Source: Gammaproteobacteria bacterium
GTDB lineage: Bacteria; Pseudomonadota; Gammaproteobacteria; Eutrophobiales; Eutrophobiaceae
Length of the DNA: 64,000 bases
Direction of reading: 5' to 3'
NCBI GenBank assembly: GCA_965248145.1
Contig: OZ252091.1
Span: 3,218,082-3,282,081 of the forward strand
Shown here: in pieces, positions 28,928-45,753 of the stretch
Position numbering within the stretch: the first letter of the stretch is position 1
Layout: every line of letters starts with the position of its first letter
Position numbers and translations under genes: made by a program
The notes under the pieces: model-generated
Database searches by the model: none
What the model saw: the letters and a program-made list of their open reading frames with translations, nothing else
What the model was told of the DNA's origin: nothing

Positions 28928-30235
28928 TCAGCCCGTAATTGCCTCATACAAAGTTCCACTCAGGACAAAGATCAGGATTGCCGGAGCGGCCCATTTGATC
29001 CAGAAAAAGTAAATGGATGACAGCAGCTTGTACTTTGTGCCGAAAACCTGCCTGACTGCATCTGCTCTGCCGATTACCCAGGCGAGCGCAAGCAAGGCAA
29101 GACAGCCGCCAATCAGCAGTCCGGCAGAACCGAAGAGCAGGTCCGCAATACCGATCAGTCCGGGATAAAAGGTAAAGAAAACAGCTAACAGGGCCTGAAT
29201 CACCACTAAAATAATCAACAGCCGCGTCTTGCTGATACGGACGACTTTGGAATCACCCAGCAGGCCCCCTACTACCGCTTCAATCACGGCAACGTAGGAA
29301 AGCAACGCTACCAGAAAAAGAGAGAGCAGCATCAAACTGCCGAACAAACGGCCACCGGGAATGGCATTGAACAAACCGGGCAGGGTTTCAAACAGCAGCG
29401 TCGGTCCTGCCGTCAAATCCATGCCGAATACGAGCAGGGCCGGGATAAGATATAACGCCGCCAATAATGCCGCGCCGGTATCACCGATGCATGTCATCAC
29501 GGCTAACCTGGGCAGTTTGATGTCGTCCTTCAGGTAGCTGCCGTAGATCAAGGTAAGAGTCGCCCCCAGGCCGATTGAAAAATAGGCCTGACCCATAGCG
29601 GCAAAAACCTCGGTAAACCCTATCTTGCTGAAATCCACTTGCAGGAATACCGATAAATGCGATGTGGCTCCCGGCAGGTTCAATACCTTGTAGACAAGAT
29701 AAAAACTGACCAGGAAGAAAAATGGGACAAACAGGTTACTGACAAACTCAATACCTTTTCTGACGCCGCGATGTATGATGAAAGCGGAAACTAAAAGGAC
29801 AAACAATGCCAGGAATAACTGTAGCGAGTGGTTGCTCAGGCCTGTTTTGAAGGCGGGAGTCGTTGCCGCGCTGAACCCGTGCAGTGCCGAATAATAACCA
29901 CTATAGAAAATATTGCCGACGATAACGAGATAATACCCCCCCGCTATAGAGAGGGAAAACAACAGGCCATAACCAATCAGCCGTCCATATACGGGACCGA
30001 ACGTCGCCGTAAAAGCGCCGATGGTCCCTTGCCGCGTATGTCTCGCCAGTGACCACTCCGCCATCAACGCGGGTAAAGACAGAAAGACCACACAGGCAAT
30101 AAATAAAACCAGGAACGCACTGCCCCCATGGCTGCCCATCATATAAGGGAAACGCCATACATTGCCGATACCGATAGCGAGGCCGGCGGTCGCCATCAAA
30201 GACGTTAAAAAAGAACTGAAGCGCTGGGTCGGCAA
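28928..30235 (-). CDS. sodium-dependent transporter (NSS/SNF family)
   Basis: 435 aa, 11-12 TM segments. The N-terminal motif IGIGNVWRFPYM is an NSS family hallmark. Confidence 0.8.
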   Translation of the reverse strand: MPTQRFSSFLTSLMATAGLAIGIGNVWRFPYMMGSHGGSAFLVLFIACVVFLSLPALMAEWSLARHTRQGTIGAFTATFGPVYGRLIGYGLLFSLSIAGGYYLVIVGNIFYSGYYSALHGFSAATTPAFKTGLSNHSLQLFLALFVLLVSAFIIHRGVRKGIEFVSNLFVPFFFLVSFYLVYKVLNLPGATSHLSVFLQVDFSKIGFTEVFAAMGQAYFSIGLGATLTLIYGSYLKDDIKLPRLAVMTCIGDTGAALLAALYLIPALLVFGMDLTAGPTLLFETLPGLFNAIPGGRLFGSLMLLSLFLVALLSYVAVIEAVVGGLLGDSKVVRISKTRLLIILVVIQALLAVFFTFYPGLIGIADLLFGSAGLLIGGCLALLALAWVIGRADAVRQVFGTKYKLLSSIYFFWIKWAAPAILIFVLSGTLYEAITG

Positions 30236-30381: not shown

Positions 30382-31659
30382 TTAACGTTTATTGACAAAA
30401 AATCGTTTTCCCTTCATTTCAAACCGTGGCAGTGTTCCCGGTTCAACTACCGTTATATTTGGCCGCAAACCCAGTTTGTCCACCATCAACTCTGCCAGCG
30501 CCGCTTGTGTCGTGGCCCGACCTGCGTCAGCGTTGACTTCAATTTCCATATCGATTTCATCCAGTTCCCCCGTGGTTGAGATGGTTGTTCGATATTCGTC
30601 TATCTCATCCAGGCTGCGTACCAGGTTATCGATCGCGCCGGGGTAAATATTGACGCCGCGTACAGTTACCATATCATCCATACGACCGATAATGCCACCT
30701 TCAAAGTACAGCAGGTGGCGCGTTGTCGCCGCTGGCCCGGTATAGCGGACCATGTCTCCTGTTTTGTAACGGATAACCGGGAAGCCCCAACGCCCCAGGT
30801 TGGTCAGCACCAGTTCGCCTGCTTCACCCTGCTCGACGCGCTTACCTTCCGCGTTGAGTACCTCAGCGATAAATTCGGTCTCGTTAACCAATAAACCATT
30901 CGGGTGCGTACACGCCTCGAAGCCATAAGCGCCGACTTCCGATGCGCCTGAATGATCACGGCATTTCGCCGACCAGCCTGATTCAATGCGCCGTTTAATC
31001 GCCGGTATGTTGGTGCCCGGTTCACCGGTGTGAATCGTCGTATGGATTTTTAATTCACCGATGTCAAAATCATGTTCACCGGCCACTTTCAACAGGTGCA
31101 AAGCGTAGCTCGGCGTACAACACAACACCGTACAACCTGTTTCCCGCATTAACTTCAAACGTTCCAGCGAGGAGCGACCACCGCCCGGGATCAATAACGC
31201 CCCCAGTTGTCGGGCGCCTTCCACGGCGGCCCAGAAGCCGATAAACGGGCCAAAAGAAAAAGCGCAAAATATCCTGTCGTTCGCATTCACGCCGGAAGAA
31301 GAAAAAACCTGTTTCCAGCAACGCCCCCACCAGTCCCAGCTTTCCGGTGTATCCAACACCCGCAATGGCTCGCCTTTAGTCCCCGAGGTCTGGTGAAAAC
31401 GGGTGTATCGAGATAATGGATACGTCAGGTTTGCCGCAAAATGACCATTATCCTGATCTGCGACCAGTTCACTTTTTTCAGTGAACGGCAGGCGTGAAAT
31501 ATCATCCAGGGACTGAATACTGTCCGGTTTAATCCCGGCCTCATCAAACTTTTTTGTATAAAACCGGTTCTTACGATAAATCTCAGCAAAAGTGTGATGC
31601 AATTTAGTTAATTGCAATTCTTCAATGGCGGTTCTTGAGGACAGGGTTAAGGCGTCCAT
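30382..31659 (-). CDS. phenylacetate-CoA ligase family (PaaK-like) aryl/arylalkyl acid-CoA ligase
   Basis: 425 aa. The PaaK-like N-terminal region and the AMP-binding core (TSGTKGEP, YKTGD) are present. Confidence 0.8.
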   Translation of the reverse strand: MDALTLSSRTAIEELQLTKLHHTFAEIYRKNRFYTKKFDEAGIKPDSIQSLDDISRLPFTEKSELVADQDNGHFAANLTYPLSRYTRFHQTSGTKGEPLRVLDTPESWDWWGRCWKQVFSSSGVNANDRIFCAFSFGPFIGFWAAVEGARQLGALLIPGGGRSSLERLKLMRETGCTVLCCTPSYALHLLKVAGEHDFDIGELKIHTTIHTGEPGTNIPAIKRRIESGWSAKCRDHSGASEVGAYGFEACTHPNGLLVNETEFIAEVLNAEGKRVEQGEAGELVLTNLGRWGFPVIRYKTGDMVRYTGPAATTRHLLYFEGGIIGRMDDMVTVRGVNIYPGAIDNLVRSLDEIDEYRTTISTTGELDEIDMEIEVNADAGRATTQAALAELMVDKLGLRPNITVVEPGTLPRFEMKGKRFFVNKR

Positions 31660-31662
31660 ATC

Positions 31663-32685
31663 TCACAACAGGGATTGGCGCGCGATTTTTTTCCTGGTTG
31701 CGCGCATATCATCACCGCGAAGCTCCCGCAGCGCGCAGCCCGCAATATGGCCGATAGCCCGTTTCCGCCAGTGGGGAGCAAAGTCCGTGTTCTTTACCGG
31801 CTTCGCCGCCTTGACGCAGGCGGCCGCAGCTTCTTCAATCACCTCGTCCGTCAATCTCCTGCCCCGTAGAAATTCATTGGCCGTTGCGCAAAAGACAGGT
31901 TGCGACGCGACCGCGCCCAATACGATACGCGCGTCTGTGATACTGTCGCGCGCATCAAATTGAATCGTAGCAGCCACCGATAAAACCGGAAAATCAAATG
32001 AACCGCGACGCCGCAATTTCCAGTAGGCGCTTCTTGACCCGTTTGCATCCGGCAAAACGATATTCGTCAGGATCTCCTCTTTTTTACGCGTTAAATAATG
32101 GATGCCGTCGTCCTGGTACAAGTCTTTCAATGGAACCGTCCGCTGTCCGTTTGCCGACACGAGCTCCACTTCGGCGCCCAATGAAATAAGCGCCGGCGCC
32201 GTATCCGTTGACGAGGTTGCCAGGCACTTTTTACTGCCGGTAGCGACCCAGCAGATGTCGCCGTCTTTTTTCATGCAGAAGTCGATAGCCTTGCGCCATT
32301 CATGGTTTTGATCGTAGTAATTGCAGCGGGTATCCAGACAGATGTTGCCGCCCAATGTGCCCATGTTGCGCAGGAGCGGCGTCGCCACCTGCGCGGCGGC
32401 CTGCCATAATCCTTTGTAGGCTGATTTGATTGTGTCATTTTCCACCAGGGAAGTGAGGGTTACGCCCGCGCCGATGGTCAGGCCGGTCCCGTTCGTCAAC
32501 TTCTTTAACGCGTCGATATGACGCAAGGCCACCAGGGTCTGCGGCGTTTGCTGACGGCGCTTCATGTTGGGCAATAAATCGGTGCCACCGGCGATTACCA
32601 TGACGTTGTCTTCAGCGGCCAGGATCTGCGCCGCCTCGCTGACGTCCCGCGGCCGGTAATAATGGAACCGGGGCAGGCGCATCAT
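31663..32685 (-). CDS. molybdenum hydroxylase FAD-binding medium subunit with Cys-rich insertion (4-hydroxybenzoyl-CoA reductase HcrB-like)
   Basis: FAD_binding_5 domain (VMVIAGGTDLLPNMK). An extra loop ICLDTRCNYYDQ...FCMKKDGDICWV...KKCLA lies within the protein. The roughly 340-aa length is as in HcrB rather than CoxM. Confidence 0.75.
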   Translation of the reverse strand: MMRLPRFHYYRPRDVSEAAQILAAEDNVMVIAGGTDLLPNMKRRQQTPQTLVALRHIDALKKLTNGTGLTIGAGVTLTSLVENDTIKSAYKGLWQAAAQVATPLLRNMGTLGGNICLDTRCNYYDQNHEWRKAIDFCMKKDGDICWVATGSKKCLATSSTDTAPALISLGAEVELVSANGQRTVPLKDLYQDDGIHYLTRKKEEILTNIVLPDANGSRSAYWKLRRRGSFDFPVLSVAATIQFDARDSITDARIVLGAVASQPVFCATANEFLRGRRLTDEVIEEAAAACVKAAKPVKNTDFAPHWRKRAIGHIAGCALRELRGDDMRATRKKIARQSLL

Positions 32686-35165
32686 GATGCGGCCACCTGT
32701 TTGAATTTATCCATCTCGTGCATCTTGGCGGCCCGTTTGCGCTGCGGTTTATTGACGGCGTTGCCATCCCCCCCCTCCCAGGGTGGCGGCACCCGGAACG
32801 GCTCCGGCCACTCGAGGTCAGGAAACCGGTCAGGTCCCACCCGGCCTGCTCCCCCCCTGGCCTTGTCATCCAGGGCCTTCAATATCTTTTCGGCGGTAAC
32901 CGGCACCTCATCAATACGCACGCCCACGGCGTCGTAAACCGCATTGGCCACAGCCGGCATGATGGGCAGCAAGGGGCCTTGTCCCGCTTCCTTGGCGCCG
33001 AACGGGCCATTATCATCGGGGTGTTCAATCAAGTCCGTGATCACTTCCGGCATATCATGGGAGGTGGGACTCTTGTATTCCAGCATCGAAGGCTCACGAT
33101 GAACCAGCGCGCCGGATAAGCGCGCCGGCAGTCGGCGAAAGGCGGACTCTTCCATCAAGGCTTCTCCCAATCCCATGTAAACGCTGCCCTCCACCTGGCC
33201 GCGGGCGAGTACGGGGTTCATGGCGCGACCGAGGTCATGGGCGATATAGATCCTGGGAACGGTGAGCCAACCGGTGGACGTATCGACGTCCACCTCGACC
33301 ACGGCCGCCGTATAGGAGTAAGCCGGCGATGGCCCGACACCCCCGCCTTTATATTTCCCGGGTGGGGCCGCCGGCGTATAGGAGCCCGTCGTGCCCAGGG
33401 CGCCGTGCATTTCCTCCGCGCAAACCAGCGCTTTTTGAAACGACAGTATCTGCTCGGAATGGCCGGCGTTAAAGACCTGGCCGTTGGCAAAAACGATGGA
33501 TTCAACGCCCGTATCAAATTTTTGCGCAACCGCCTGCGCGATCAACTCGCGGGCCCGCTCCGCCGCCTGGATAGCGGCATTGCCCATCATCAGGGTCACG
33601 CGGGATGAATAGGATCCCAGGTCGACCGGGGTCAAGTCCGTATCGCCGGTGACGCAGCGGATATCCAGGGGATCGATGCCCAGTATCTCGGCAATCGTGG
33701 CGACCAGTACGTCGTCGGAACCCTGGCCGATTTCCGTGGCCCCGCAAAATACCGTGACCTTGCCGCTACGATCCAGCTTCAATTGCACACCGGAATGGGG
33801 CATGGCGTTCCAGTAAATGGAATTGCCCGCGCCGGTCAGGTAACTGGAACAAGCCAGACCCAGGCCCTTCCCTTCCGGCAGTTTCCCGTATTTATCCTTC
33901 CAGCCGGAACGTTCGGTCACCGTATGGATACATTCCGCCAGACCGATGCTGCCGATCTTCAGGTAATTGGCCGTCAGCGCGCCGGGTTTCTCAACGATAT
34001 TAAGACGAAACTCGGCGGGATCGATTTTCAGCTTTTCCGCTATCTTGTCCAACTGCACTTCCTGGCCGAAACGCGGTTGCACCGTTCCATGACCCCGTTT
34101 CGGGCCGCAGGGGGGTTTGTTGGTGAACATGCGGCAGGCGTCAAAGGCATAGCGCGGCAGGTGATAGGTGACGGGTTGCAACACGGCCGTATAGAAGGTA
34201 CTGGCAACGCCATAGGAGCCGTAGGCGCCGCCGTCCAGCAAGGTCTGTAAATGCATACCGGTCAGCGCGCCGCTCTTGTCGACGCCGGTCCGGAATTTCA
34301 TCAATACCGGGTGGCGGCCGCGGTGACAATAAAATACTTCTTCGCGGTTCAGGCAGATCTTGACGGGGCGGCCCAGCATCATGGCGGCTTTTACCACCAC
34401 TATCTCATGATGAAACGGATCGGACTTGCCGCCGAAACCGCCGCCGTTGGGACTGGCAATGACGCGGATGCGCGCCATGGGGACGTCCAGCGCTCTGGCA
34501 ACGGCGCGATGTACGTAATGGGGACATTGCGTGCTTGACCACAGGGTAACCCGGCCATCGGCTTCCAACATCCCGACGGCGGCATGTTGCTCCAGGGGCA
34601 GGTGGGTATTGCCCTCAAAGAAGAAAATGTCTTCGAACACGTGATCGCTGTTTGCCAGGCTCTCCTCCACGTCGCCAAATTCGTAACTGAGGCGTTTATG
34701 GATATTTCCCTCTTCGCTGTATTCATGTAAACGCGCGGCAGGATTATTCAGGGCCTCGGCGGGATCGGAGATCGTATCCAAGGGTTCATACTCGACCCTG
34801 ATCAGGTCCAGAGCCTCCTCCGCGGCAAACTCATCCCGGGCAACAACGGCCGCGACCGGATCACCCACAAAACGCACTTTTTCCCTGCATAAGGGCTGTT
34901 CATCCTGGCTTACCGGCAGGATGCCGTATTCATTGGGGAAATCCTTGCCGGTCAATACCAGCTTCACTCCGGGATGCCGCTCAGCCCTGCCGGTGTCAAC
35001 GGACCTGATAAGAGCATGGGGCACGTGGGAACGCAGCAGTTTACAGTGCAACATGCGCGGCAACATAATATCGTCGGCAAACTGGGTGCGGCCGGTCACC
35101 TTATCGGCGCCATCCACGCGCCGGCGCGGCTTGCCGATGACGGAGAATGTATCCGTATCACTCAT
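32682..35165 (-). CDS. molybdopterin-dependent hydroxylase large subunit (xanthine dehydrogenase family; 4-hydroxybenzoyl-CoA reductase HcrA-like)
   Basis: 827 aa. Ald_Xan_dh_C and MoCo-binding domains are present. There is an unusual roughly 60-aa Pro/Gly/Lys-rich C-terminal tail. It overlaps the downstream gene by 4 bp. Confidence 0.8.
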   Translation of the reverse strand: MSDTDTFSVIGKPRRRVDGADKVTGRTQFADDIMLPRMLHCKLLRSHVPHALIRSVDTGRAERHPGVKLVLTGKDFPNEYGILPVSQDEQPLCREKVRFVGDPVAAVVARDEFAAEEALDLIRVEYEPLDTISDPAEALNNPAARLHEYSEEGNIHKRLSYEFGDVEESLANSDHVFEDIFFFEGNTHLPLEQHAAVGMLEADGRVTLWSSTQCPHYVHRAVARALDVPMARIRVIASPNGGGFGGKSDPFHHEIVVVKAAMMLGRPVKICLNREEVFYCHRGRHPVLMKFRTGVDKSGALTGMHLQTLLDGGAYGSYGVASTFYTAVLQPVTYHLPRYAFDACRMFTNKPPCGPKRGHGTVQPRFGQEVQLDKIAEKLKIDPAEFRLNIVEKPGALTANYLKIGSIGLAECIHTVTERSGWKDKYGKLPEGKGLGLACSSYLTGAGNSIYWNAMPHSGVQLKLDRSGKVTVFCGATEIGQGSDDVLVATIAEILGIDPLDIRCVTGDTDLTPVDLGSYSSRVTLMMGNAAIQAAERARELIAQAVAQKFDTGVESIVFANGQVFNAGHSEQILSFQKALVCAEEMHGALGTTGSYTPAAPPGKYKGGGVGPSPAYSYTAAVVEVDVDTSTGWLTVPRIYIAHDLGRAMNPVLARGQVEGSVYMGLGEALMEESAFRRLPARLSGALVHREPSMLEYKSPTSHDMPEVITDLIEHPDDNGPFGAKEAGQGPLLPIMPAVANAVYDAVGVRIDEVPVTAEKILKALDDKARGGAGRVGPDRFPDLEWPEPFRVPPPWEGGDGNAVNKPQRKRAAKMHEMDKFKQVAAS

Positions 35166-35701
35166 CAGCCAACGTTGCCTGCCGTTCGTCTTCCTGACTG
35201 GTTGACGCGCAGGATCGCTTCTTCCACGGATTCAAAGATCTGTTGATACCCGGTGCAGCGGCACAGGTTGCCGGACAGGGCTTCCCGGATCTGCTCCCGG
35301 TCGGGATTGGGTTGCCGGTCGAGTAAGGCCTTGCAGGTAAGCAGGATGGCCGGCGTACAATAACCGCATTGGGCGCCGCCGAGATCGGCGAACGCCGATT
35401 GCAAGGGATGTAATTCCGCGGCCTCCGCCATACCTTCTATGGTATCGATGGCGCAACCTTCAGCTTCCAGGGCCAGTGACAGGCAGGAAAGTATCGGCTC
35501 GCCGTCAACCAGAACCGCACAGGCGCCGCATTCGCCCAACTCACAACCGTGTTTGGTGCCGGTCAGTTGCAGGTCTTCCCGCAACATCTCCAGCAGCGTT
35601 TTGTAAGGCGCCACCGAGACCTGCAGCGGCTCACCGTTGACCTGGCAACTGATGTGGGCATTCTCCTGTGTATCTCGTTTAAGCGTTGTGACCGTGTTCA
35701 C
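35165..35701 (-). CDS. (2Fe-2S)-binding small subunit of the molybdenum hydroxylase (HcrC/CoxS-like)
   Basis: Plant-type cluster (CELGECGACAV) and a second cluster (GAQCGYCTPAILL...NLCRCTGY). Confidence 0.85.
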   Translation of the reverse strand: MNTVTTLKRDTQENAHISCQVNGEPLQVSVAPYKTLLEMLREDLQLTGTKHGCELGECGACAVLVDGEPILSCLSLALEAEGCAIDTIEGMAEAAELHPLQSAFADLGGAQCGYCTPAILLTCKALLDRQPNPDREQIREALSGNLCRCTGYQQIFESVEEAILRVNQSGRRTAGNVG

Positions 35702-35816: not shown

Positions 35817-35865
35817 CATTCATCAATATTGTAAGGATACCTTACATTATAGTAGAATAAAAGAA

Positions 35866-36339
35866 ATGAATAAAAACACAACCGAACATGCCGTGGATTT
35901 CACCACACTCAATGGGTTGATCGGCTTTCAGGTCCGGCAGGCGCAGCTCCAGGTTTTCAACCATTTCCGGAAAACAGTCGGAAAAACGGGAATCACGCCA
36001 GGCCAGGCCGGTATTCTCATTTTAATCGGGAATAATCCTGCTATCAGCCAAGCTGCCCTGGCCCGCGCTATTGGGGTGGAACGGGCCACGCTGGGTCAAA
36101 TCATCGCGGACATGGAGGCCAAATCCTGGGTGGAACGCCATCCATCCCATTCAGACAAGCGCAGTTACGCGCTGGCACTGTCATCATCCGGCAAGACCTT
36201 CCTGGAAAAAATGTTGCAGAAGATCACTGTCCATGAGCAGGACATGATCGCTCACTTAAGCATAAAAGAACGACGGGAATTTCTGCGTTTGTTACTTAAA
36301 TTTTCCGGTGTTGATAGACATGACGACAAACGTGGCTGA
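35866..36339 (+). CDS. MarR-family transcriptional regulator
   Basis: 157 aa with a MarR wHTH (GITPGQAGILILIGNNPAISQAALARAIGVERATLGQIIADME). Divergent from the hcr-like operon. Confidence 0.8.
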   Translation: MNKNTTEHAVDFTTLNGLIGFQVRQAQLQVFNHFRKTVGKTGITPGQAGILILIGNNPAISQAALARAIGVERATLGQIIADMEAKSWVERHPSHSDKRSYALALSSSGKTFLEKMLQKITVHEQDMIAHLSIKERREFLRLLLKFSGVDRHDDKRG

Positions 36340-36547: not shown

Positions 36548-36817
36548 TTGCCCATTGAAAATCATGAAAGTTTATTGACCACCATGCTGCACCGTCACCT
36601 TAATCATGAGCGTTTTACTCTTGCCGGGATCGATGATGTGATCTCTCGAGGCCGCTGGCGGGATTGGGTCGACCTGCGTCATGCAATCCTTAGAGACCGG
36701 TCATTGCTGGATAAAATAGAACGGGTCTGTCACGCCCATCTTGTTGACCCTTACGCCCAACGTTATCACTTCTGGATGAACTATGTCGAGGAGCGCCGCA
36801 CCTGCGACCCTGCCTGA
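36548..36817 (+). CDS. hypothetical small protein, possible antitoxin partner of the downstream nucleotidyltransferase
   Basis: 89-aa ORF with a TTG start. It overlaps the downstream gene by 35 bp. No motif recognised. Confidence 0.3.
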   Translation: MPIENHESLLTTMLHRHLNHERFTLAGIDDVISRGRWRDWVDLRHAILRDRSLLDKIERVCHAHLVDPYAQRYHFWMNYVEERRTCDPA

Positions 36818-37637: not shown

Positions 37638-39134
37638 ATGACATTCAAACTACCCGACAGGGACGAATTGAAAACCATTGCCGGTTCCATGGGATTGACT
37701 GTGGATGACACACTGGCGGAAACCATGCTTGAACAACTGGCAATGTTCGGCGGCGGCTATCAATTCATGGATCAACTGGAAGATAACCTGCCGGAAATCC
37801 AATATCCTCACAGGAGTTATCGACCCCCGACCGGGGAAGAAAACCCACTGGGCGCCTGGTACGTCAGGACTGACCTGAAAGGCAGGGACGCGGGACCGCT
37901 CAAGGACAGGACGGTTGCCGTCAAGGATAATATCTTTGTCGCAAATGTTCCCATGATGAACGGCGCTTCGATCCTGGAAGGTTTCATACCGGACTTCGAT
38001 GCCACCGTCGTTACCCGGTTGCTGGATGCCGGCGCTGAGATTACCGGCAAGGCGGTATGTGAATTTCTTTGTGTTTCCGGCGGCAGCGCCACAGCCAGTT
38101 CCGGCGTTGTCAGCAACCCGCATGATCACGATTACTCTGCCGGCGGTTCTTCCTCAGGCAGCGCTGCGCTGGTCGCCAACGGTGACGTGGATATGGCTTT
38201 GGGCTGCGACCAGGCCGGTTCGGTGCGCATTCCGTCGAGTTTCTGTGCTGTCTACGGTATGAAGGCCACTCACGGCCTGCTCCCCTACACGGGCATCATG
38301 GGCATGGAGGCCATGTTGGACCATGTCGGCCCCATGACGACAAACGTGGCCGATAACGCCCTGCTGCTGGAAGTCCTGGCGGGTTACGACGGGATGGACA
38401 GCCGCCAACGCCAATTACGAGTGCATAAATACACTGAGGCGCTCGGTGAGGATATCAGGGGAATGAAAATCGCCGTGGTCAAAGAGGGCTTTGGTCATCC
38501 CCTGTCGGAACCCGGGGTTGATCATTGTGTGCGTGACGCGGCAAGTCAATTCGCCGAGATCGGCGCGGAGGTGGCTGAAGTATCCATCCCCATGCACCTG
38601 GATGGCGTCCCTCTCTGGGGCAGTATTATCACTGACGGGCTTTGGGATACCATGCGCCATAACGGTCTCGCCGTAAACACCAACGGCTTTAACTCGCCGG
38701 CGTTGGAAAAATTCATGTCCGGCTGGCAGGATAAATTCGACCGGTTTCCCGTCAACCTGCACCTGATCCTGGTGCTGGGCAAGTACCTGGAGAAATATCA
38801 GGGCAAGTATTACGCCAAAGCAAAAAATCACCTGCCGAAACTGGCCAAGGCCTATAACGATGTCTTGCAGGATCATGACCTGTTACTGATGCCGACGACG
38901 TTGATGCAACCGCAAAAGAATCCGGCGCCTGACTCAGACCCTACCGAAAATATTATATTCATGGCGTTTAACACGGTACTCAATACCTGTCAGTTCGATA
39001 TTACCGGCCACCCGGCGATGTCGCTGCCGTGCGGCCGGCGCAACGGCCTGCCCGTAGGCATGATGCTGGTAGGCAAACACTTTGACGAACCGGCTATCTA
39101 CCGGGCTGCCTACGGGTTTGAACAGTCTTGTTAG
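37638..39134 (+). CDS. amidase (amidase-signature family)
   Basis: 498 aa. The AS signature GGSSSGSAALVANG and the Ser-cisSer-Lys triad context are present. Confidence 0.8.
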   Translation: MTFKLPDRDELKTIAGSMGLTVDDTLAETMLEQLAMFGGGYQFMDQLEDNLPEIQYPHRSYRPPTGEENPLGAWYVRTDLKGRDAGPLKDRTVAVKDNIFVANVPMMNGASILEGFIPDFDATVVTRLLDAGAEITGKAVCEFLCVSGGSATASSGVVSNPHDHDYSAGGSSSGSAALVANGDVDMALGCDQAGSVRIPSSFCAVYGMKATHGLLPYTGIMGMEAMLDHVGPMTTNVADNALLLEVLAGYDGMDSRQRQLRVHKYTEALGEDIRGMKIAVVKEGFGHPLSEPGVDHCVRDAASQFAEIGAEVAEVSIPMHLDGVPLWGSIITDGLWDTMRHNGLAVNTNGFNSPALEKFMSGWQDKFDRFPVNLHLILVLGKYLEKYQGKYYAKAKNHLPKLAKAYNDVLQDHDLLLMPTTLMQPQKNPAPDSDPTENIIFMAFNTVLNTCQFDITGHPAMSLPCGRRNGLPVGMMLVGKHFDEPAIYRAAYGFEQSC

Positions 39135-39204
39135 TTTCTGGTTTCCAGTTTTTAGTTGTTAGTGGTTTTTAGAAACTGACAACTAAAAACTAACAACTAA
39201 TAAC
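39131..39204. repeat. AAACTAAAAACTA-family repeat (direct plus inverted) between amidase and AOR
   Basis: ttagtttctggtttccagtttttagttgttagtggtttttagaaactgacaactaaaaactaacaactaa. Confidence 0.7.
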
Positions 39205-39255
39205 CAGCATTTAATGATTTATAATAGGTAATTTTTCCGGGGCAACAATATATAT

Positions 39256-40968
39256 ATGCGTAACTATCTTCATATTGACTTGAAAGAGCGGACAGTGAGA
39301 GCTGTCGAACAGGATGGAGAAGAACTGGTCCGCGTTGGCCGCTATCTCATCGCCAAAACTCTTGTGGAAGAAAATATTGCAGGTGTCGACCCACTGTCGC
39401 CGGATAATCCGTTAATTTTTTCCGCCGGCCCTTTTGCCGGCACCAATTTCTCCAACGCCAATCGTACCAGTGTCGGTTGCAAAAGCCCGCTGACGGGCGG
39501 CATCAAGGAATCCAATGCCGGCGGTACGTTCGGCGTGGCGCTGGGCCAATTGCACTTGTCGGGATTTACCCTGCATGGCGCCGCCGCCGAGTGGGTGATT
39601 ATTCATCTCAGAAAAGATGGTAGCTGCAGTTTTGACTCCGCCGCAGGTTTCATGGGCAAGGGCAATTTTGAAACGGCCGTGCTGCTGCATGAAAAATACG
39701 GCAAAAAGGTCAGCCTGGCCCTGTGCGGCCCTGTCGGTGAGCGCCAGGGACTGCTTGCCGGCATCGCCATCAGTGATACCGATCGGCGTCCCGCCAGGCT
39801 GGCGGCGCGGGGTGGCGTCGGGGCCGTCCTGGGCAGCAAGAAAGTGAAGGCAATCGTGGCCGACCTGAACAAAATGCCGCACTTGCACGAACGTAAGAAA
39901 GTCATGGGGACGGTGCGCCACTATGCCGAAAAACTGGGCGAAGACCCGATGATAGACAGCTACAAACGTTTCGGCACGGCCATGATGGCGGATTACATGA
40001 ACCACGTAGGCGCCCTGCCGGTGCGTAATTTTTCTTCCGGTCGCCTGGTAGATACCAGCAAGGAAACCATGAAGATGGGCGGTGATTTCATTCGCGAACA
40101 GAATATCGCCCGCGGCGGTGAACCGGACCATGCCTGTATGCCCGGTTGCCTGATCCGTTGCAGCAACGTCTATGCCGACGCCGACGGCAATGAAATCGTA
40201 TCGCCCGTCGAGTATGAAACGCTGGGATTGCTGGGTACCAATTGCGGCATCAAGGAACCCGATGAACTGGCAAAGTTGAATGCCGTCGCCAACGACCTCG
40301 GTATCGATACGATTGAGACCGGCGCCATGGTCGGCGTACTGATGGAAGCCGGTCTGGGCAAATTCGGTGACGCCGGGTTTGTCACCGACGTACTGGAACA
40401 GATCCGCAACGGCACGGAGCAAGGCCGGCTCTGGGCGCACGGCACAGCTTTTGTCGGTGAGCATTACCAGGTTCAGCGGGTGCCGGTGATCAAGAGACAG
40501 GCCATCAGCGCCTATGATCCCCGCGTGGTCGAGGCAACGGGCATTACCATGATGGTAACGGCCCAGGGCGCGGACCACACGGCGGGGAACGTCCCCAGGA
40601 TGGAAACCGCGGACAAGTCCATAGAGGAGGTGGCCGGGGCCAGCCATGACGCCCAGGTGCTGTGCGCGGCAACGGATTCATTGGGATTCTGTATTTTTGG
40701 CCGTACCGTAACGAGCGCTGAGTTAGATGCAGTAACCGCAGCGATTAACGCCGCGGTCGGTACTGATCTTGATGCGTCTTTCTTCAACGAACTGGGCCGG
40801 GAAACATTAAGACTCGAGAAAGAGTTCAACCGGGCCGCCGGCTTCACGGAAGAAGATGATGAATTACCCGAATTCTTCTACAAGGAGGCGTTGGAACCCA
40901 GCCTGCGGGTCGCGCGCTTTCATACGAAAGAAGTCAACGAATTCGTTGACAACTGGTGGCGGCAATAA
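39256..40968 (+). CDS. tungsten-type aldehyde:ferredoxin oxidoreductase (AOR family)
   Basis: The N-terminal AFOR_N domain is strongly recognisable (IFSAGPFAGTNFSNANRTSVGCKSPLTGGIKESNAGGTFG). AFOR_C follows. 570 aa. Confidence 0.85.
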   Translation: MRNYLHIDLKERTVRAVEQDGEELVRVGRYLIAKTLVEENIAGVDPLSPDNPLIFSAGPFAGTNFSNANRTSVGCKSPLTGGIKESNAGGTFGVALGQLHLSGFTLHGAAAEWVIIHLRKDGSCSFDSAAGFMGKGNFETAVLLHEKYGKKVSLALCGPVGERQGLLAGIAISDTDRRPARLAARGGVGAVLGSKKVKAIVADLNKMPHLHERKKVMGTVRHYAEKLGEDPMIDSYKRFGTAMMADYMNHVGALPVRNFSSGRLVDTSKETMKMGGDFIREQNIARGGEPDHACMPGCLIRCSNVYADADGNEIVSPVEYETLGLLGTNCGIKEPDELAKLNAVANDLGIDTIETGAMVGVLMEAGLGKFGDAGFVTDVLEQIRNGTEQGRLWAHGTAFVGEHYQVQRVPVIKRQAISAYDPRVVEATGITMMVTAQGADHTAGNVPRMETADKSIEEVAGASHDAQVLCAATDSLGFCIFGRTVTSAELDAVTAAINAAVGTDLDASFFNELGRETLRLEKEFNRAAGFTEEDDELPEFFYKEALEPSLRVARFHTKEVNEFVDNWWRQ

Positions 40969-42683
40969 ACGTGCCCAACCTGGAAAAAGCTAGCGATAAC
41001 ATGCCGGAACTGCCGTCATCAACGGACGCCGTACTGCTGGATTTTCAAACGCATCCAGATCGGTATCGCCATTGGAAGCTGACGACATCCGGTTCCATTG
41101 CCAACCTGGATATGGACGTGAACGAAGACGGCGCCATGTTCCCCGGTTACGAACTGAAACTGAACTCCTATGATATCGGTGTCGATATCGAACTCTACGA
41201 TGCGATTCAGCGACTGCGTTTTGAACACCCGGAAGTGAAAACCGTAGTGGTCAGTTCCAATAAGCCCACCATGTTCTGCGCCGGCGCCAATATCCGTATG
41301 CTGGCGGGCGCCTCCCACGGCCATAAGGTGAATTTCTGCAAATTTACCAACGAGACCCGGAACGCCATTGAAGACGCCGGGGAGTTCTCCGGCCAGCGTT
41401 ACCTGTGTGCGTTAAATGGCACTGCAGCCGGCGGTGGTTATGAACTGGCGCTGGCCATGGATTACCTGATCCTGATCGATGACGGCAATGCCGCCGTATC
41501 CTTACCGGAAATCCCCTTGCTTGCCGTCTTGCCCGGCACCGGCGGGCTAACGCGGATTGTTGATAAAAGAAAGGTGCGCCGGGACCTGGCTGACGTATTC
41601 TGTACCGTAGAGGAAGGCGTCAAAGGGCAACGGGCCGTTGCCTGGCGCCTGGTGGATGAGATTGTCCCCAGCTCCAGGTTCGCGGAGCGAGTGGCAGAGC
41701 GGGCTCAGGAAATGAGCCAAACGTCTGACCGCCCCGACACGGCCGGGGGGGTGCGGTTGACGCCGTTATCAAGGACGATCAAGACAGACAGTATCGAGTA
41801 CGACTGGCTGCGCCTGACTATAGACAGGGAAAACCGCAACGTCACCTTGCAAATCAAGGGGCCTGGTATCGACGCGCCGGACACTGTGGCAAACGCGATC
41901 GCTATGGGAGATCGATTCTGGCCGCTGGCCCTGGCCCGGGAACTGGATGACGCCTTGCTGCACCTGCGTTTCAACGAACCGGCCATCGGCACCATAATTA
42001 TCAAATGCGCCGGCGCTGCCGAGTCCGTCAAAGACTATGACGGGTTCCTGCTCAACCACAAGGATGACTGGCTGGTACGGGAAATCATCCTCTACTGGAA
42101 ACGTACGCTGAAACGGGTTGACGTGACGTCCCGCACCAGCTTTGCTTTCATAGAACCGGGAAGCTGTTTCGTGGGTTTCCTGGCCGAGTTTCTGTTCGCC
42201 GTGGACCGCAGTTACATGCTGGACGGGCAGTTTGAAGATGACGACACGCCACCGGCCACCATTATGCTGACTGAAAATAACTTCGGCCCCCTGCCCATGG
42301 CAAATGGTTTGACGCGCCTGGCAACCCGTTTCCTCGGCGAACCGGAAAGTGTCGGAACCACGAGAACATTTATCGGTCAAAATATTGACTCGGTGCTGGC
42401 CTCGGACCTGGGGCTGGTTACCTTCACCCCCGATGACATCGACTGGGAGGACGAGATAAGAATGTTGCTGGAAGAGCGGGCCAGTTTCTCTCCCGATGCC
42501 CTGGTAGGGATGGAAGCCAATTTACGTTTTGCCGGGCCGGAAACCCTGGAGACCAAGATTTTCGGCCGCCTCACCGCCTGGCAGAACTGGATATTTCAAC
42601 GACCCAACGCGGTCAGCGAGGCGGGCGCGTTGCAGCGTTATGGCACGGGCCAGCGTCCCGAGTATGACAAAAACAGGGTATAA
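40956..42683 (+). CDS. boxC: benzoyl-CoA-dihydrodiol lyase / 2,3-epoxybenzoyl-CoA dihydrolase (BoxC, crotonase superfamily)
   Basis: 575 aa, unusually long for a crotonase-fold protein (FCAGANIRMLAGAS...GTAAGGGYELALAMDYLIL). It lies adjacent to boxB. The start overlaps the AOR stop. Confidence 0.7.
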   Translation: MAAINVPNLEKASDNMPELPSSTDAVLLDFQTHPDRYRHWKLTTSGSIANLDMDVNEDGAMFPGYELKLNSYDIGVDIELYDAIQRLRFEHPEVKTVVVSSNKPTMFCAGANIRMLAGASHGHKVNFCKFTNETRNAIEDAGEFSGQRYLCALNGTAAGGGYELALAMDYLILIDDGNAAVSLPEIPLLAVLPGTGGLTRIVDKRKVRRDLADVFCTVEEGVKGQRAVAWRLVDEIVPSSRFAERVAERAQEMSQTSDRPDTAGGVRLTPLSRTIKTDSIEYDWLRLTIDRENRNVTLQIKGPGIDAPDTVANAIAMGDRFWPLALARELDDALLHLRFNEPAIGTIIIKCAGAAESVKDYDGFLLNHKDDWLVREIILYWKRTLKRVDVTSRTSFAFIEPGSCFVGFLAEFLFAVDRSYMLDGQFEDDDTPPATIMLTENNFGPLPMANGLTRLATRFLGEPESVGTTRTFIGQNIDSVLASDLGLVTFTPDDIDWEDEIRMLLEERASFSPDALVGMEANLRFAGPETLETKIFGRLTAWQNWIFQRPNAVSEAGALQRYGTGQRPEYDKNRV

Positions 42684-42787
42684 CACGGTAATAGGCGTCA
42701 CTCCGGCGAATCATGCCCTGGAACGTTGTAATCCGGGGGTCGGAATCCGGGGACGTGCTTCATAGGCATGACATCAGTAGCAAGGAT

Positions 42788-44233
42788 ATGACCATGGGCA
42801 ATGTAGATTACGATAGCTTGATCCCCAACAACGTAGGCCTTGCCTCGGACCGGCGCCTGCAACGGGCCCTGGAGCGCTGGCATCCCGGCTATATCGACTG
42901 GTGGAAAACCATGGGACCGGATAGCTTCCAGGACCTGGATGTGTACCTGCGCACGGCCATCGGCGTTGAACCTGAGGGCTGGGCCCGGTTCGGCTACGTG
43001 AAAATGCCGGAGTATCGCTGGGGCATATTACTGGCGCCCCGGGAAGAAGACAGGAAGATCGCCTTTGGCCGGCATAAGGGCGAACCGGTCTGGCAGGAAA
43101 TACCGGGAGAATATCGCGCCATGTTACGGCGCCTGGTGGTCATCCAGGGCGATACGGAACCCGCTTCTGTGGAACAGCAACGCTTCCTGGGGCATATCGC
43201 CCCCTCCTTGTATGACATGCGCAACGTCTTTCAGGTCAACGTCGAAGAAGGCCGCCACCTGTGGGCCATGGTGTACCTGCTGCATAAATACTTTGGTCGC
43301 GACGGCCGGGAGGAGGCGGAGGATTTACTCAGGCGGCGTTCCGGCGATCAGGATAAACCCCGCATCCTTGGCGCGTTCAATGAAAAAACGCCGGATTGGT
43401 TGTCTTTCTTCATGTTTACCACCTTTACCGACCGGGACGGCAAGATGCAACTGGAATCCCTGGCCCAGTCGGGCTTTGACCCCCTGGCCCGCACTACCCG
43501 TTTCATGCTCACCGAGGAAGGCCACCACATGTTCGTCGGTCGAACCGGTATCGAGCGCGTCCTGAGACGCACCTGCGAGGTGATGAAGGAACATAACATC
43601 ACTGACCCGACGGATACCGGGGCAGTCAGGAACCTGGGCGTCATCGACCTGCCGACCATGCAGAAGAAAATAAACTTCCATTATTCCGTCACCCTGGATT
43701 TATTCGGCGCCGAGATTTCCACCAACGCATCCAATGCCTTCAACGCCAGCCTTAAAGGCCGTTTCCGGGAAACCACTATCGACGATGATCATCAACTCCA
43801 TAACAGCGCCTACCCGGTATTGAAACACGTCAACGGGAAACTGGTCAGCGTGGACGAGCCGGCCATCAATGCAGTGAACAGCCGCCTCTGCGATGATTAT
43901 ATTGCTGATTGCGAACAAGTCCTTACCACCTGGAACAAGGCCATTGCCGATTATGGATACGCATACCGCTTGAGTCTGCCCAGCCGGGCCTTTCACCGGG
44001 CGGTAGGTGAGTTCAGTGACGTCCATGCTACGCCGGAGGGCGCTCTAATCGAACAAGCTGAGTGGGAACGACGCCGGGAAGAATGGTTGCCGAACAATGA
44101 CGACCTGGAATTTCTATTGTCGCTCATGGAACAGGTCATCGAACCGGGAAAATTCGCCCATTGGATAGCCCCCCCCAGAGCCGGCATCAACGGCAAACCC
44201 GGTGATTTTGAATACGTCAAAATAGCCGCTTAA
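42788..44233 (+). CDS. boxB: benzoyl-CoA 2,3-epoxidase subunit B (diiron oxygenase BoxB)
   Basis: The N-terminus NVDYDSLIPNNVGLASDRRLQRALERWHPGYIDWW matches the BoxB family. Length from the internal ATG at 42788 is 481 aa; the ORF track extends to 42713. Confidence 0.75.
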   Translation: MTMGNVDYDSLIPNNVGLASDRRLQRALERWHPGYIDWWKTMGPDSFQDLDVYLRTAIGVEPEGWARFGYVKMPEYRWGILLAPREEDRKIAFGRHKGEPVWQEIPGEYRAMLRRLVVIQGDTEPASVEQQRFLGHIAPSLYDMRNVFQVNVEEGRHLWAMVYLLHKYFGRDGREEAEDLLRRRSGDQDKPRILGAFNEKTPDWLSFFMFTTFTDRDGKMQLESLAQSGFDPLARTTRFMLTEEGHHMFVGRTGIERVLRRTCEVMKEHNITDPTDTGAVRNLGVIDLPTMQKKINFHYSVTLDLFGAEISTNASNAFNASLKGRFRETTIDDDHQLHNSAYPVLKHVNGKLVSVDEPAINAVNSRLCDDYIADCEQVLTTWNKAIADYGYAYRLSLPSRAFHRAVGEFSDVHATPEGALIEQAEWERRREEWLPNNDDLEFLLSLMEQVIEPGKFAHWIAPPRAGINGKPGDFEYVKIAA

Positions 44234-44288: not shown

Positions 44289-44678
44289 TCATTCTGCAGC
44301 TATCAAGTCATCAATATTTATACGCAAAGCCGCCGCCAGCTTTTTAAGTGTGTCAATGCCCCCGGTTTTCTTGCCACTTTCAATTTGCGCGATGTAGCCC
44401 TGTTGCACACCAGACCTGGTTTCAAGTTCTTTTTGGGTCAGGCCGCGATATTCGCGCCAGATTCGCAACCGTTGTTCTTCATCCTGAAGCAACTTGTGCG
44501 CAACGTCGGCAGGAATAAGCTCATCTCCACCGGACGCCAACTCACTCATGGCATCATCCGCCGCCCGGATGTCCTCCGCGTCTTCGGCCAGTTCCAGCAA
44601 TCGGTGGTACAATTCAATAGGCAAAACCGCATATTCCGGTTGTCCGTCTTTTTCAATAACCTGTACGTGATTCATCAT
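44289..44678 (-). CDS. HigA-like XRE-HTH antitoxin
   Basis: 129 aa with a C-terminal HTH (LTQKELETRSGVQQGYIAQIESG). It lies downstream of the toxin and overlaps it, in the higBA order. Confidence 0.7.
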   Translation of the reverse strand: MMNHVQVIEKDGQPEYAVLPIELYHRLLELAEDAEDIRAADDAMSELASGGDELIPADVAHKLLQDEEQRLRIWREYRGLTQKELETRSGVQQGYIAQIESGKKTGGIDTLKKLAAALRINIDDLIAAE

Positions 44679-45751: not shown

Positions 45752-45753
45752 TC

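What the first reader, a model, noticed from the sequence alone, without database searches (positions are those of the whole stretch)
30382..35701. PaaK-like CoA ligase plus HcrCAB-like molybdenum enzyme with Cys-rich medium-subunit insert and an unusual C-terminal tail on the large subunit
The three-subunit xanthine-dehydrogenase-family enzyme has a medium subunit with an extra Cys-rich loop (C...C...C...C...C), the hallmark of the [4Fe-4S] insertion that distinguishes 4-hydroxybenzoyl-CoA reductase from ordinary hydroxylases. Yet it is co-operonic with a phenylacetate-CoA-ligase-family ligase, not a benzoate-type one, and with an NSS transporter. That combination suggests an arylalkanoate (e.g. 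hydroxyphenylacetate or indoleacetate-like) CoA-thioester dehydroxylase/hydroxylase instead of canonical 4-HBA metabolism. The large subunit has a roughly 60-aa Pro/Gly/basic C-terminal extension not typical for the family.
Basis: partly seen in the sequence, partly recalled or inferred. Interest (0 to 1): 0.55.

Follow-up and report, generated by a model that had tools for sequence, protein, structure and literature searches.

The report
Variant 4-hydroxybenzoyl-CoA reductase-like operon with ligase
A sponge-associated bacterium carries a three-subunit molybdenum enzyme related to the "anaerobic" 4-hydroxybenzoyl-CoA reductase. It belongs to a widespread, unstudied branch that has lost the usual catalytic glutamate and gained a conserved tail, and here it sits beside oxygen-dependent benzoyl-CoA ring-opening genes.

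Summary
On the minus strand, 35701-30382 encodes a 2x[2Fe-2S] subunit, an 827-aa Mo subunit, a 340-aa FAD subunit and a PaaK-superfamily ligase, tightly packed.

- **FAD subunit.** Its insert aligns without gaps to Thauera HcrB. All four [4Fe-4S] cysteines are matched and invariant in 43 relatives.
- **Tail.** The 58-aa tail is real, conserved and predicted to be ordered.
- **First reading not supported.** The ligase is only about 30% like true PaaK. It is 56-57% identical to the ligase that ends the phenol-to-4-hydroxybenzoate clusters of Azoarcus/Aromatoleum. Divergent neighbours are true BoxC and BoxB, whose substrate is benzoyl-CoA.
- **New here.** The enzyme is not canonical HcrCAB. It scores below all three NCBIfam cut-offs. 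The catalytic Glu is Gln in 121/121 clade members, against Glu in 118/118 canonical HcrA. The clade spans Gammaproteobacteria, Acidobacteriota, Gemmatimonadota, Planctomycetota and Chloroflexota.

Best reading (about 0.5): a para-substituted benzoate is ligated to CoA, reductively dehydroxylated to benzoyl-CoA, then opened by a box pathway lacking BoxA. No activity was tested.

This scan has met the same clade before on other DNA.

The parts
35165..35701 (-). Small subunit, 178 aa, 2x[2Fe-2S] (HcrC-like), GTG start
   Evidence: Pfam Fer2 + Fer2_2. TIGR03193 scores 168.7 bits, below the 257.8 cut-off. TGATG overlap with the next gene.
32682..35165 (-). Large molybdopterin subunit, 827 aa (HcrA-like, long-tail/Gln clade)
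   Evidence: Pfam Ald_Xan_dh_C, MoCoBD_1 and MoCoBD_2. TIGR03194 scores 766.6, below the 994.55 cut-off. 1RM6_A matches at 572.6 bits over residues 10-769. The AF2 model has pLDDT 91.2, and its TM-score normalised to 1RM6 is 0.97.
32979..32981 (-). Codon of Gln729, at the position of the family's catalytic glutamate (Thauera E726, EbN1 E740)
   Evidence: Alignment to 1RM6_A. The translation reads KEAGQGP. Gln in 121/121 clade members, against Glu in 118/118 canonical HcrA.
32685..32858 (-). C-terminal tail of the large subunit, residues 770-827, with conserved motifs G-x3-R-x-GP-x2-FP, PPWEGGDG and RKRAAK
   Evidence: Translation. Column conservation in 121 homologues. Tail length is 36-58 aa in the clade and 0-22 aa in canonical HcrA. 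pLDDT is 90-97 over residues 761-810. No Pfam domain covers it.
31663..32685 (-). Medium FAD subunit, 340 aa (HcrB-like)
   Evidence: Pfam FAD_binding_5 + CO_deh_flav_C. TIGR03195 scores 297.3, below the 404.55 cut-off. 1RM6_B matches at 197 bits in a single stretch. ATGA overlap with the large subunit.
32224..32340 (-). Cys-rich insert (residues 116-154) with the four predicted [4Fe-4S] ligands C121, C137, C145 and C154
   Evidence: Gap-free alignment to Thauera HcrB C122/C138/C146/C155. The four Cys are 43/43 invariant. Translation.
30382..31659 (-). PaaK-superfamily aryl-CoA ligase, 425 aa, of the phenol-cluster 'ORF14' type (likely 4-hydroxybenzoate-type ligase)
   Evidence: Pfam AMP-binding_C_2. 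Below the PaaK cut-offs. PDB PaaK structures match at only 174-183 bits. 56-57% identical to Azoarcus/Aromatoleum ligases; those of Azoarcus CIB and KH32C lie in pps-ppc clusters. Starts 3 nt after the medium-subunit stop.
28928..30235 (-). NSS/SNF-family sodium symporter; same strand, 146-nt gap, possibly a separate transcript
   Evidence: Pfam SNF and NCBIfam Na_transp. Kept in relatives that have lost the ligase (L005, L012). The spacer has no clear terminator.
35866..36339 (+). Divergent MarR-family regulator
   Evidence: Pfam MarR and MarR_2. Conserved at this place in relatives and in L099.
35830..35846 (.). Perfect 17-bp palindrome TGTAAGG-TAT-CCTTACA abutting a TATAAT hexamer in the marR-hcrC spacer; candidate operator
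   Evidence: Read directly from the sequence. Not tested further.
37638..44233 (+). Divergent context genes: amidase, AOR-family oxidoreductase, BoxC and BoxB
   Evidence: Amidase 654 bits for PRK07235; BoxC 906.6 bits (cut-off 712.3); BoxB 857.6 bits (cut-off 499.1). AOR domains. No BoxA in the 98%-complete genome.

Best explanation
The four genes form an aryl-carboxylate activation and reduction module.

**Proposed steps.**
1. The ligase makes the CoA thioester of a para-substituted benzoate, most likely 4-hydroxybenzoate.
2. The three-subunit Mo/Fe-S/FAD enzyme takes low-potential electrons in through the extra [4Fe-4S] cluster of its FAD subunit. It removes the para substituent reductively and gives benzoyl-CoA.
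3. In this genome benzoyl-CoA is then epoxidised and opened by the divergently encoded BoxB and BoxC. The AOR-family enzyme is a candidate for oxidising the resulting aldehyde.

**What kind of enzyme it is.** It is not canonical HcrCAB. It belongs to a separate, widespread and biochemically unstudied clade in which the catalytic glutamate is always glutamine and the large subunit carries a conserved, ordered tail of about 50 residues.

**Shown.** Gene content and packing, cofactor-binding motifs, clade membership, the Gln substitution, tail conservation, the ligase's relatives and their context, and the presence of BoxB/BoxC without BoxA.

**Inferred.** The substrate, the direction of the reaction, the electron donor and the link to the box genes.
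For: - **Fold and insert.** The closest solved structure is Thauera HCR for both the large subunit (572.6 bits, TM 0.97 normalised to the chain, rmsd 1.7 A) and the medium subunit. The [4Fe-4S] Cys ligands are invariant.
- **Cofactor residues.** Residues shared across the Hcr superclade are kept: Q213, R357, Q481, K725 and E726 are invariant in A1.
- **Tree.** The clade (100% support) nests inside the 'KE..EG' Hcr superclade. It lies in a 22-row group (97% support) with the canonical representative P0151, which scores 1301 bits for TIGR03194.
- **Ligase.** It belongs to the subfamily found at the end of the pps-ppc phenol clusters of Azoarcus CIB and KH32C. That subfamily is assigned as 4-hydroxybenzoate-CoA ligase in D. 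anilini (PMC6114531).
- **Recurring arrangement.** The order HcrC-HcrA(823-828 aa)-HcrB with this ligase recurs in other lineages: an Anaerolineae locus L098, L099, L081, and Acidobacteriota L021 and L037.
- **Box link.** BoxB and BoxC are true equivalogs. BoxB and/or BoxC lie within 8 kb of the trio in at least 12 of 80 loci, including a distant Gammaproteobacterium (L013), an Acidobacteriota genome (L019) and a Burkholderiales genome (L035). L081 shows the same.
- **Local route.** The ligase plus this enzyme is the only route to benzoyl-CoA encoded in the locus.
Against: - **Below cut-offs.** All three subunits score below the NCBIfam HcrCAB equivalog cut-offs.
- **Catalytic residue and pocket.** The catalytic Glu is replaced by Gln. 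Another 74 positions are fixed differently from canonical HcrA, several next to active-site motifs (S211/H216, K350, P355-K356). The substrate or mechanism may therefore differ.
- **Ligase is not constant.** It is absent next to the trio in six relatives that are 88-91% identical (L001, L005, L006, L011, L012, L066). It was not found in two Gemmatimonadota genomes that carry the clade.
- **Box link is not general.** Only 1 of 5 other genomes carrying the clade has BoxB above its cut-off.
- **Oxygen and electron supply.** Canonical HCR needs a low-potential ferredoxin and is described as an enzyme of anaerobic metabolism (from my own knowledge), whereas BoxB needs O2.
- **Not encoded locally.** No ferredoxin gene or XdhC-type maturation gene is in the operon. 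The EbN1 hcr operon does have XdhC.
- **No expression or activity data** are available.
Confidence: 0.5

Rival explanations
1. The chemistry is the same (reductive removal of a para substituent from a benzoyl-CoA), but the physiological substrate is not 4-hydroxybenzoyl-CoA. Candidates are 4-aminobenzoyl-CoA (reductive deamination), 3,4-dihydroxybenzoyl-CoA, or halogenated hydroxybenzoyl-CoA derived from sponge bromotyrosine metabolites.
For: - There are 75 clade-specific fixed differences from canonical HcrA, including the catalytic position.
- Hcr-like paralogues of D. anilini are induced by aniline and 4-aminobenzoate and are proposed to be 4-aminobenzoyl-CoA reductases (PMC7500099).
- An amidase is encoded in the divergent operon.
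- L099 carries a PnbB-family gene (4-nitrobenzoate pathway) two genes after the ligase.
- The host lineage is sponge-associated, judging by record titles and a sponge metagenome run.
Against: The ligase's nearest relatives with an interpretable context sit in phenol-to-4-hydroxybenzoate clusters. Nothing in the window is specific for amino- or halo-aromatics.
Confidence: 0.17
2. The pair acts on an arylalkanoate: the ligase makes 4-hydroxyphenylacetyl-CoA or an indoleacetyl-CoA-like ester, and the Mo enzyme dehydroxylates or hydroxylates it.
For: The ligase is in the PaaK superfamily. An amidase and an NSS transporter nearby could handle arylacetamides or amine-like compounds.
Against: - The ligase is only about 30% identical to the genome's own second PaaK-like gene and matches PDB PaaK structures at 174-183 bits.
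- It scores far below the PaaK cut-offs, and its subfamily is linked to ring carboxylates.
- No side-chain oxidation genes and no paa genes are nearby.
- The neighbours BoxB and BoxC act on benzoyl-CoA.
Confidence: 0.08
3. The clade catalyses an unknown, Glu-independent reaction that is not tied to aryl-CoA metabolism. The ligase and box genes are lineage-specific neighbours of a broadly used enzyme.
For: - Only the three-subunit core is conserved in all 80 loci.
- Gemmatimonadota neighbours are unrelated: M19 dipeptidase, glycosyltransferase, histidine kinase.
- In the Vicinamibacterales locus the trio is preceded only by a TetR gene.
- The ligase and BoxB are missing from several genomes carrying the clade.
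- Large-subunit identity of 61-92% across phyla suggests one strongly constrained function.
Against: - The same ligase subfamily is linked to the trio repeatedly and independently, in Gammaproteobacteria, Acidobacteriota and Chloroflexota.
- Box genes are linked to the trio in three phyla.
- MAG incompleteness weakens the absences.
Confidence: 0.15
4. The enzyme runs oxidatively, or serves as an electron-transfer module. It would feed electrons through its FAD/[4Fe-4S] subunit to BoxB, standing in for the missing BoxA.
For: - BoxA is absent from this complete genome.
- BoxA is also absent from 4 of 5 other genomes in which BoxB/BoxC lie next to the trio, including a second single-contig genome.
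Against: - The general base needed for hydroxylation in this family is Gln here.
- Most genomes carrying the clade lack BoxB, so this cannot be the clade's general role.
- An AOR-family gene overlapping boxC is a simpler source of reducing power.
Confidence: 0.06

Closest known systems
4-Hydroxybenzoyl-CoA reductase HcrCAB of Thauera aromatica (PDB 1RM6/1SB3) and Aromatoleum aromaticum EbN1
   Same: - Gene order small-large-medium.
- Cofactor domains.
- The roughly 40-aa [4Fe-4S] insert, with all four Cys ligands aligned.
- The K-E motif of the large subunit.
- The fold (TM 0.97, rmsd 1.7 A, 38% identity).
   Different: - All three subunits are below the equivalog cut-offs.
- Gln replaces the catalytic Glu (121/121 against 118/118).
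- A further 74 positions are fixed differently.
- The tail is 36-58 aa against 0-22 aa.
- No XdhC gene follows the operon, whereas EbN1 has one.
- The hosts carry O2-dependent box genes.
Phenol-cluster 'ORF14' PaaK-like ligase of Thauera/Azoarcus/Aromatoleum and D. anilini (proposed 4-hydroxybenzoate-CoA ligase)
   Same: 56-57% identity over 98% of the length, and the same size of about 430 aa. In D. anilini the ligase gene shares its cluster with the Hcr alpha-subunit gene.
   Different: In the Azoarcus genomes the ligase follows the pps-ppc-ubiX-NUDIX genes rather than hcrB. I found no paper that links this gene to a measured activity.
Phenylacetate-CoA ligase PaaK (PDB 2Y4O, 2Y27, 4R1L)
   Same: The same superfamily and two-domain architecture.
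   Different: The PDB matches score only 174-183 bits. TIGR02155 scores 233, below the 646 cut-off. There is no paa operon context.
Aerobic benzoyl-CoA (box) pathway of Azoarcus/Aromatoleum evansii
   Same: BoxB and BoxC are true equivalogs.
   Different: BoxA is not in the genome. No BoxD-type gene lies next to boxC; an AOR-family gene overlaps boxC instead. A benzoate-CoA ligase is replaced locally by the ligase plus Hcr-like module.

Membership tests
4-Hydroxybenzoyl-CoA reductase HcrCAB (canonical, NCBIfam TIGR03193/03194/03195) | Three subunits: 2x[2Fe-2S], Moco, FAD | tested here: met
   Pfam domains and gene order.
4-Hydroxybenzoyl-CoA reductase HcrCAB (canonical, NCBIfam TIGR03193/03194/03195) | Roughly 40-aa insert in the FAD subunit with four Cys that bind an extra [4Fe-4S] | tested here: met
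   Gap-free alignment to 1RM6_B, with C121/137/145/154 on C122/138/146/155. 43/43 invariant. Actual cluster binding was not tested.
4-Hydroxybenzoyl-CoA reductase HcrCAB (canonical, NCBIfam TIGR03193/03194/03195) | Score above the curated equivalog cut-offs | tested here: not met
   766.6 against 994.55, 297.3 against 404.55, and 168.7 against 257.8. The canonical representative P0151 scores 1301.7.
4-Hydroxybenzoyl-CoA reductase HcrCAB (canonical, NCBIfam TIGR03193/03194/03195) | Glutamate at the xanthine-oxidase-family catalytic position (Thauera E726) | tested here: not met
   Gln729 in the window. Gln in 121/121 clade members, against Glu in 118/118 canonical HcrA.
4-Hydroxybenzoyl-CoA reductase HcrCAB (canonical, NCBIfam TIGR03193/03194/03195) | Placement inside the canonical clade in a tree | tested here: not met
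   A separate clade with 100% support. It shares a 22-row group (97% support) with P0151 but is not inside its clade. FastTree, 64 rows.
4-Hydroxybenzoyl-CoA reductase HcrCAB (canonical, NCBIfam TIGR03193/03194/03195) | [quoted passage not shown] | not testable with these tools
   Needs an enzyme assay.
Phenylacetate-CoA ligase PaaK | Equivalog score and paa operon context | tested here: not met
   TIGR02155 scores 233 against 646.3; NF041878 scores 249.5 against 700. No paa genes are nearby.
Phenol-cluster ORF14-type ligase (proposed 4-hydroxybenzoate-CoA ligase) | Close homology to the ligase encoded at the end of pps-ppc clusters | tested here: met
   56-57% identity to the Azoarcus CIB, KH32C and Aromatoleum proteins. 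Their context in CIB and KH32C.
Phenol-cluster ORF14-type ligase (proposed 4-hydroxybenzoate-CoA ligase) | 4-Hydroxybenzoate-dependent CoA ester formation | not testable with these tools
   The assignment in PMC6114531 rests on context and proteomics.
Aerobic box pathway | BoxB epoxidase and BoxC dihydrolase | tested here: met
   857.6 against 499.1, and 906.6 against 712.3.
Aerobic box pathway | BoxA reductase component | tested here: not met
   The best hit in the 98%-complete, single-contig genome is 31 bits, against a cut-off of 459.

The most novel reading that the evidence does not exclude
The Gln-type, long-tailed clade is not a 4-hydroxybenzoyl-CoA reductase. It performs a new, glutamate-independent molybdenum reaction. 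Where boxB and boxC are adjacent and boxA is missing, its FAD/[4Fe-4S] arm also serves as the electron-entry module of the BoxB epoxidase, which couples the two enzymes.
Probability: 0.08. Interest if true: 0.85.

Novelty: new variant of a known kind. Interest (0 to 1): 0.55.

Why it matters
4-Hydroxybenzoyl-CoA reductase is the only xanthine-oxidase-family enzyme known to run 'backwards', and it is treated as a marker of anaerobic aromatic degradation.

Automatic annotation gives that name to many members of a large branch found in sponge symbionts, soil Acidobacteriota, Gemmatimonadota, Planctomycetota and Chloroflexota. This branch lacks the family's catalytic glutamate, has an extra conserved tail, and is repeatedly linked to oxygen-dependent box genes.

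If it does make benzoyl-CoA, it defines a low-oxygen hybrid route for plant- and host-derived phenolic acids. Metagenomic calls of 'anaerobic' aromatic metabolism based on hcr genes would then need revision.

If it does something else, it is a new molybdenum-enzyme chemistry. Either way the Glu-to-Gln change gives a direct handle on the debated mechanism of reductive dehydroxylation.

Tried and rejected
- **Literature.** Searches for a described pairing of the reductase with the box pathway, for Glu726, and for the 48-kDa ligase found nothing in the held library. One SAR324 metagenome paper only lists both gene sets. Two key papers could not be read (PMC438602 and PMC2650882).
- **MarR regulator.** Its nearest named family is the resveratrol-sensing Saro_0803, but at 91.6 against 200 bits this says nothing firm.
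- **Gemmatimonadota neighbours.** I searched them for a shared pathway. They were unrelated genes.
- **Clade as general BoxA substitute.** Considered and set aside, because most genomes carrying the clade lack BoxB.
- **Canonical representatives.** P0145 and P0146 were first taken for the canonical Thauera cluster but are not (536 and 556 bits to 1RM6_A). P0151 is.
- **Complex prediction.** None was run for the tail. The monomer model already places it with high confidence, and I claim no partner.
- **Model coordinates.** They were not available, so I could not determine where the tail packs.

Full report
**1. What is there.**
Four tightly packed minus-strand genes occupy 35701-30382.
- A 178-aa 2x[2Fe-2S] subunit, an 827-aa molybdopterin subunit, a 340-aa FAD subunit and a 425-aa PaaK-superfamily ligase (domains).
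- The junctions are TGATG, ATGA and a 3-nt gap, so one transcript and translational coupling are likely.
- An NSS/SNF symporter follows after 146 nt without a clear terminator. A secreted VOC-fold protein lies beyond it.
- A MarR gene is divergent. Its spacer holds a perfect 17-bp palindrome abutting a TATAAT hexamer.
- Further along the plus strand lie an amidase, an AOR-family oxidoreductase, and then true BoxC and BoxB.

The genome is a complete 3.77-Mb contig with 52.7% GC. Its nearest relatives are uncultured, sponge-associated Gammaproteobacteria.

**2.
- *Insert.* The FAD subunit aligns to Thauera HcrB (1RM6_B) in one stretch that is gap-free through the insert. Window C121, C137, C145 and C154 fall on Thauera C122, C138, C146 and C155. 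Ordinary XdhB/CoxM-type subunits align in two pieces that skip residues 117-155. The four cysteines are invariant in 43 family members.
- *Tail.* The large subunit matches Thauera HcrA over residues 10-769 and the HcrA model to residue 765. This leaves 58 extra residues.

**3. The tail is a family trait, not a local oddity.**
- The 120 nearest homologues (71-92% identical) are mostly 812-832 aa long.
- In them G771, R775, G777-P778, F781-P782, P787-E788, V792, P795-W-E-G-G-D-G801, N805, P807 and R809-K-R-A-A-K814 are nearly invariant.
- AlphaFold2 with a 60-sequence alignment gives mean pLDDT 91.2, with 90-97 over residues 761-810. The tail is therefore predicted to be an ordered, mostly non-helical wrap, not a disordered linker.
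- The core superposes on 1RM6_A with a TM-score (normalised to 1RM6) of 0.97 and rmsd 1.7 A at 38% identity.
- Canonical HcrA tails are 0-22 aa long, against 36-58 aa in this clade.
- I could not determine where the tail packs, because no coordinates were available. The basic RKRAAK end could dock an acidic electron donor. This is speculation.

**4. It is not canonical HcrCAB.**
- All three subunits have the Hcr models as a top-scoring hit (the best one for the large and medium subunits) but fall below the curated cut-offs.
- In the alignment to Thauera HcrA, the catalytic glutamate of the xanthine-oxidase family (Thauera E726, in K-E-A-S-E-G) is glutamine here (K-E-A-G-Q-G).
- The position is Gln in 121/121 members of the long-tail clade and Glu in 118/118 canonical HcrA. 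The canonical set includes A. aromaticum EbN1, Thauera, Georgfuchsia and Sulfuritalea.
- Another 74 positions are fixed differently in the two groups. Several flank active-site motifs: S211/H216 around Q213, and K350 and P355-K356 before R357.
- Residues shared across the superclade are retained (Q213, R357, Q481, K725, E726). The protein therefore looks like a working Moco enzyme, not a decayed one.
- In a 64-row tree of 50%-identity representatives, the long-tail/Gln clade has 100% support. It nests in the 'KE..EG' Hcr superclade (100%). It shares a 22-row group (97%) with P0151, the only representative tested that is above the HcrA cut-off at 1301.7 bits.
- From established knowledge of the family, this glutamate is the general base of the hydroxylation mechanism. 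Its loss argues against a hydroxylase role, but it does not say what the reductive mechanism needs.

**5. Distribution and neighbours.**
- The clade occurs in MAGs of Gammaproteobacteria, Acidobacteriota, Gemmatimonadota, Planctomycetota, Burkholderiales and others, at 61-92% identity. It also occurs in an Anaerolineae locus.
- Only the three-gene core is present in all 80 fetched loci.
- *Recurrent partner: the same ligase subfamily.* It is present at 51-81% identity in 7 of 80 loci. It also appears in L081 (divergent), L098 (Anaerolineae) and L099.
- *Recurrent partner: a TetR or MarR regulator*.
- *Recurrent partner: BoxB and/or BoxC.* They are present in at least 12 of 80 loci across three phyla. 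L081 also has a benzoate-CoA-ligase-type gene and a BoxR-like regulator.
- *Limits.* Six relatives at 88-91% identity lack the ligase. Gemmatimonadota neighbours are unrelated. Two Gemmatimonadota genomes have no ligase of this type. Only 1 of 5 other genomes carrying the clade has BoxB above its cut-off. These are MAGs, so absences are weak evidence.

**6. The ligase.**
- It matches solved PaaK structures at only 174-183 bits and is far below the PaaK equivalog cut-offs. It is about 30% identical to the genome's other PaaK-like gene.
- Homologues at 56-57% identity occur in Azoarcus sp. CIB, Azoarcus sp. KH32C, Aromatoleum toluclasticum and A. tolulyticum.
- In CIB and KH32C this gene closes the phenylphosphate synthase / phenylphosphate carboxylase / UbiX / NUDIX cluster. 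The product of that cluster is 4-hydroxybenzoate (pathway as described in PMC10715001).
- In Desulfatiglans anilini the corresponding ORF14 homologue, annotated 'phenylacetate-CoA ligase', lies in the phenol cluster together with the Hcr alpha subunit. It is assigned as the 4-hydroxybenzoate-CoA ligase (PMC6114531).
- A characterised PaaK-family enzyme activates isophthalate and not phenylacetate (PMC9516798).
- PaaK-family membership is therefore no argument for an arylalkanoate. The best-supported substrate class is a para-substituted benzoate.
- In the window, no side-chain oxidation genes are present.

**7. The box link.**
- BoxB (857.6 bits) and BoxC (906.6 bits) are well above their cut-offs.
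- BoxA is missing from this 98%-complete genome. It is also missing from 4 of 5 other genomes in which the box genes adjoin the trio, one of them a single-contig genome.
- The AOR-family gene overlaps boxC by 13 nt. It is a plausible stand-in for BoxD and a possible source of reduced ferredoxin. An earlier follow-up in this scan reached the same cautious view (e1-1257795).
- The ligase plus the Hcr-like enzyme is the only locally encoded route to benzoyl-CoA.
- This gives a coherent but untested pathway:
  1. An amide or acid is converted to the aryl-CoA.
  2. The aryl-CoA is reduced to benzoyl-CoA.
  3. Benzoyl-CoA is epoxidised.
  4. The ring is opened.
  5. The resulting aldehyde is oxidised.

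**8. Verdict.**
- Observation: confirmed.
- Interpretation: partly supported. The Hcr-like nature, the insert and the tail hold. The arylalkanoate reading does not.
- Best reading (about 0.5): a variant aryl-CoA reductive dehydroxylase, most likely acting on 4-hydroxybenzoyl-CoA, that feeds a BoxA-less box pathway.
- Rivals: another para substituent (0.17), an unknown reaction unrelated to aryl-CoA (0.15), an arylalkanoate (0.08), and an oxidative or electron-donor role (0.06).
- The clade is biochemically uncharacterised, and I found no paper that describes it.
- This scan has flagged the same clade several times on other DNA, including its box linkage and the missing glutamate (e1-2830113 and e1-3373003). 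This window is therefore a further instance, not a first sighting. It adds the ligase-orthology argument, the 121-versus-118 residue contrast and the tail model.

Noticed in passing
window 35830-35851: A perfect 17-bp palindrome TGTAAGG-TAT-CCTTACA directly abuts a perfect TATAAT hexamer (minus strand) in the marR-hcrC spacer. It looks like a MarR operator overlapping the hcr promoter.
   Followed up: no
window 39256-44233 and whole genome: BoxB and BoxC are true equivalogs, but BoxA is absent from this complete genome and from 4 of 5 other genomes with box genes next to the Hcr-like trio. An AOR-family gene overlaps boxC by 13 nt, where BoxD might be expected.
   Followed up: partly
genome C1:1009751-1012935 (outside the window): A 54%-identical paralogue of the window's amidase lies right beside the genome's best benzoate-CoA-ligase-like gene (301 bits, below cut-off). 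This suggests that 'amide hydrolysis then CoA activation' is a repeated theme in this organism.
   Followed up: no
whole genome: About a dozen xanthine-oxidase-family large-subunit paralogues (25-36% identical to this one) occur in a 3.77-Mb genome. Only this one has the Hcr-type partner with the Cys insert at high similarity.
   Followed up: partly
50%-identity representatives P0132, P0173, P0209, P0217, P0243, P0255: Several other branches of the 'KE..EG' Hcr-like superclade have also lost the catalytic Glu (Q, R, I, L or M at that position), but without the tail. The Glu directly after the conserved Lys is invariant in the superclade and could take over a role.
   Followed up: no
L099:9618-10094 and L098:1628-2817: Other loci with the order HcrCAB-ligase carry a PnbB-family gene (4-nitrobenzoate pathway) or UbiX plus NUDIX genes like those of phenol clusters. 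This again points to para-substituted benzoates.
   Followed up: no
window 36548-37493 and 44289-45972: Toxin-antitoxin-like cassettes interrupt the aromatic gene cluster on both sides: an AbiEii-like pair, and HTH/RelE-like and HicA/HicB-like pairs. The scan has already noted these.
   Followed up: no
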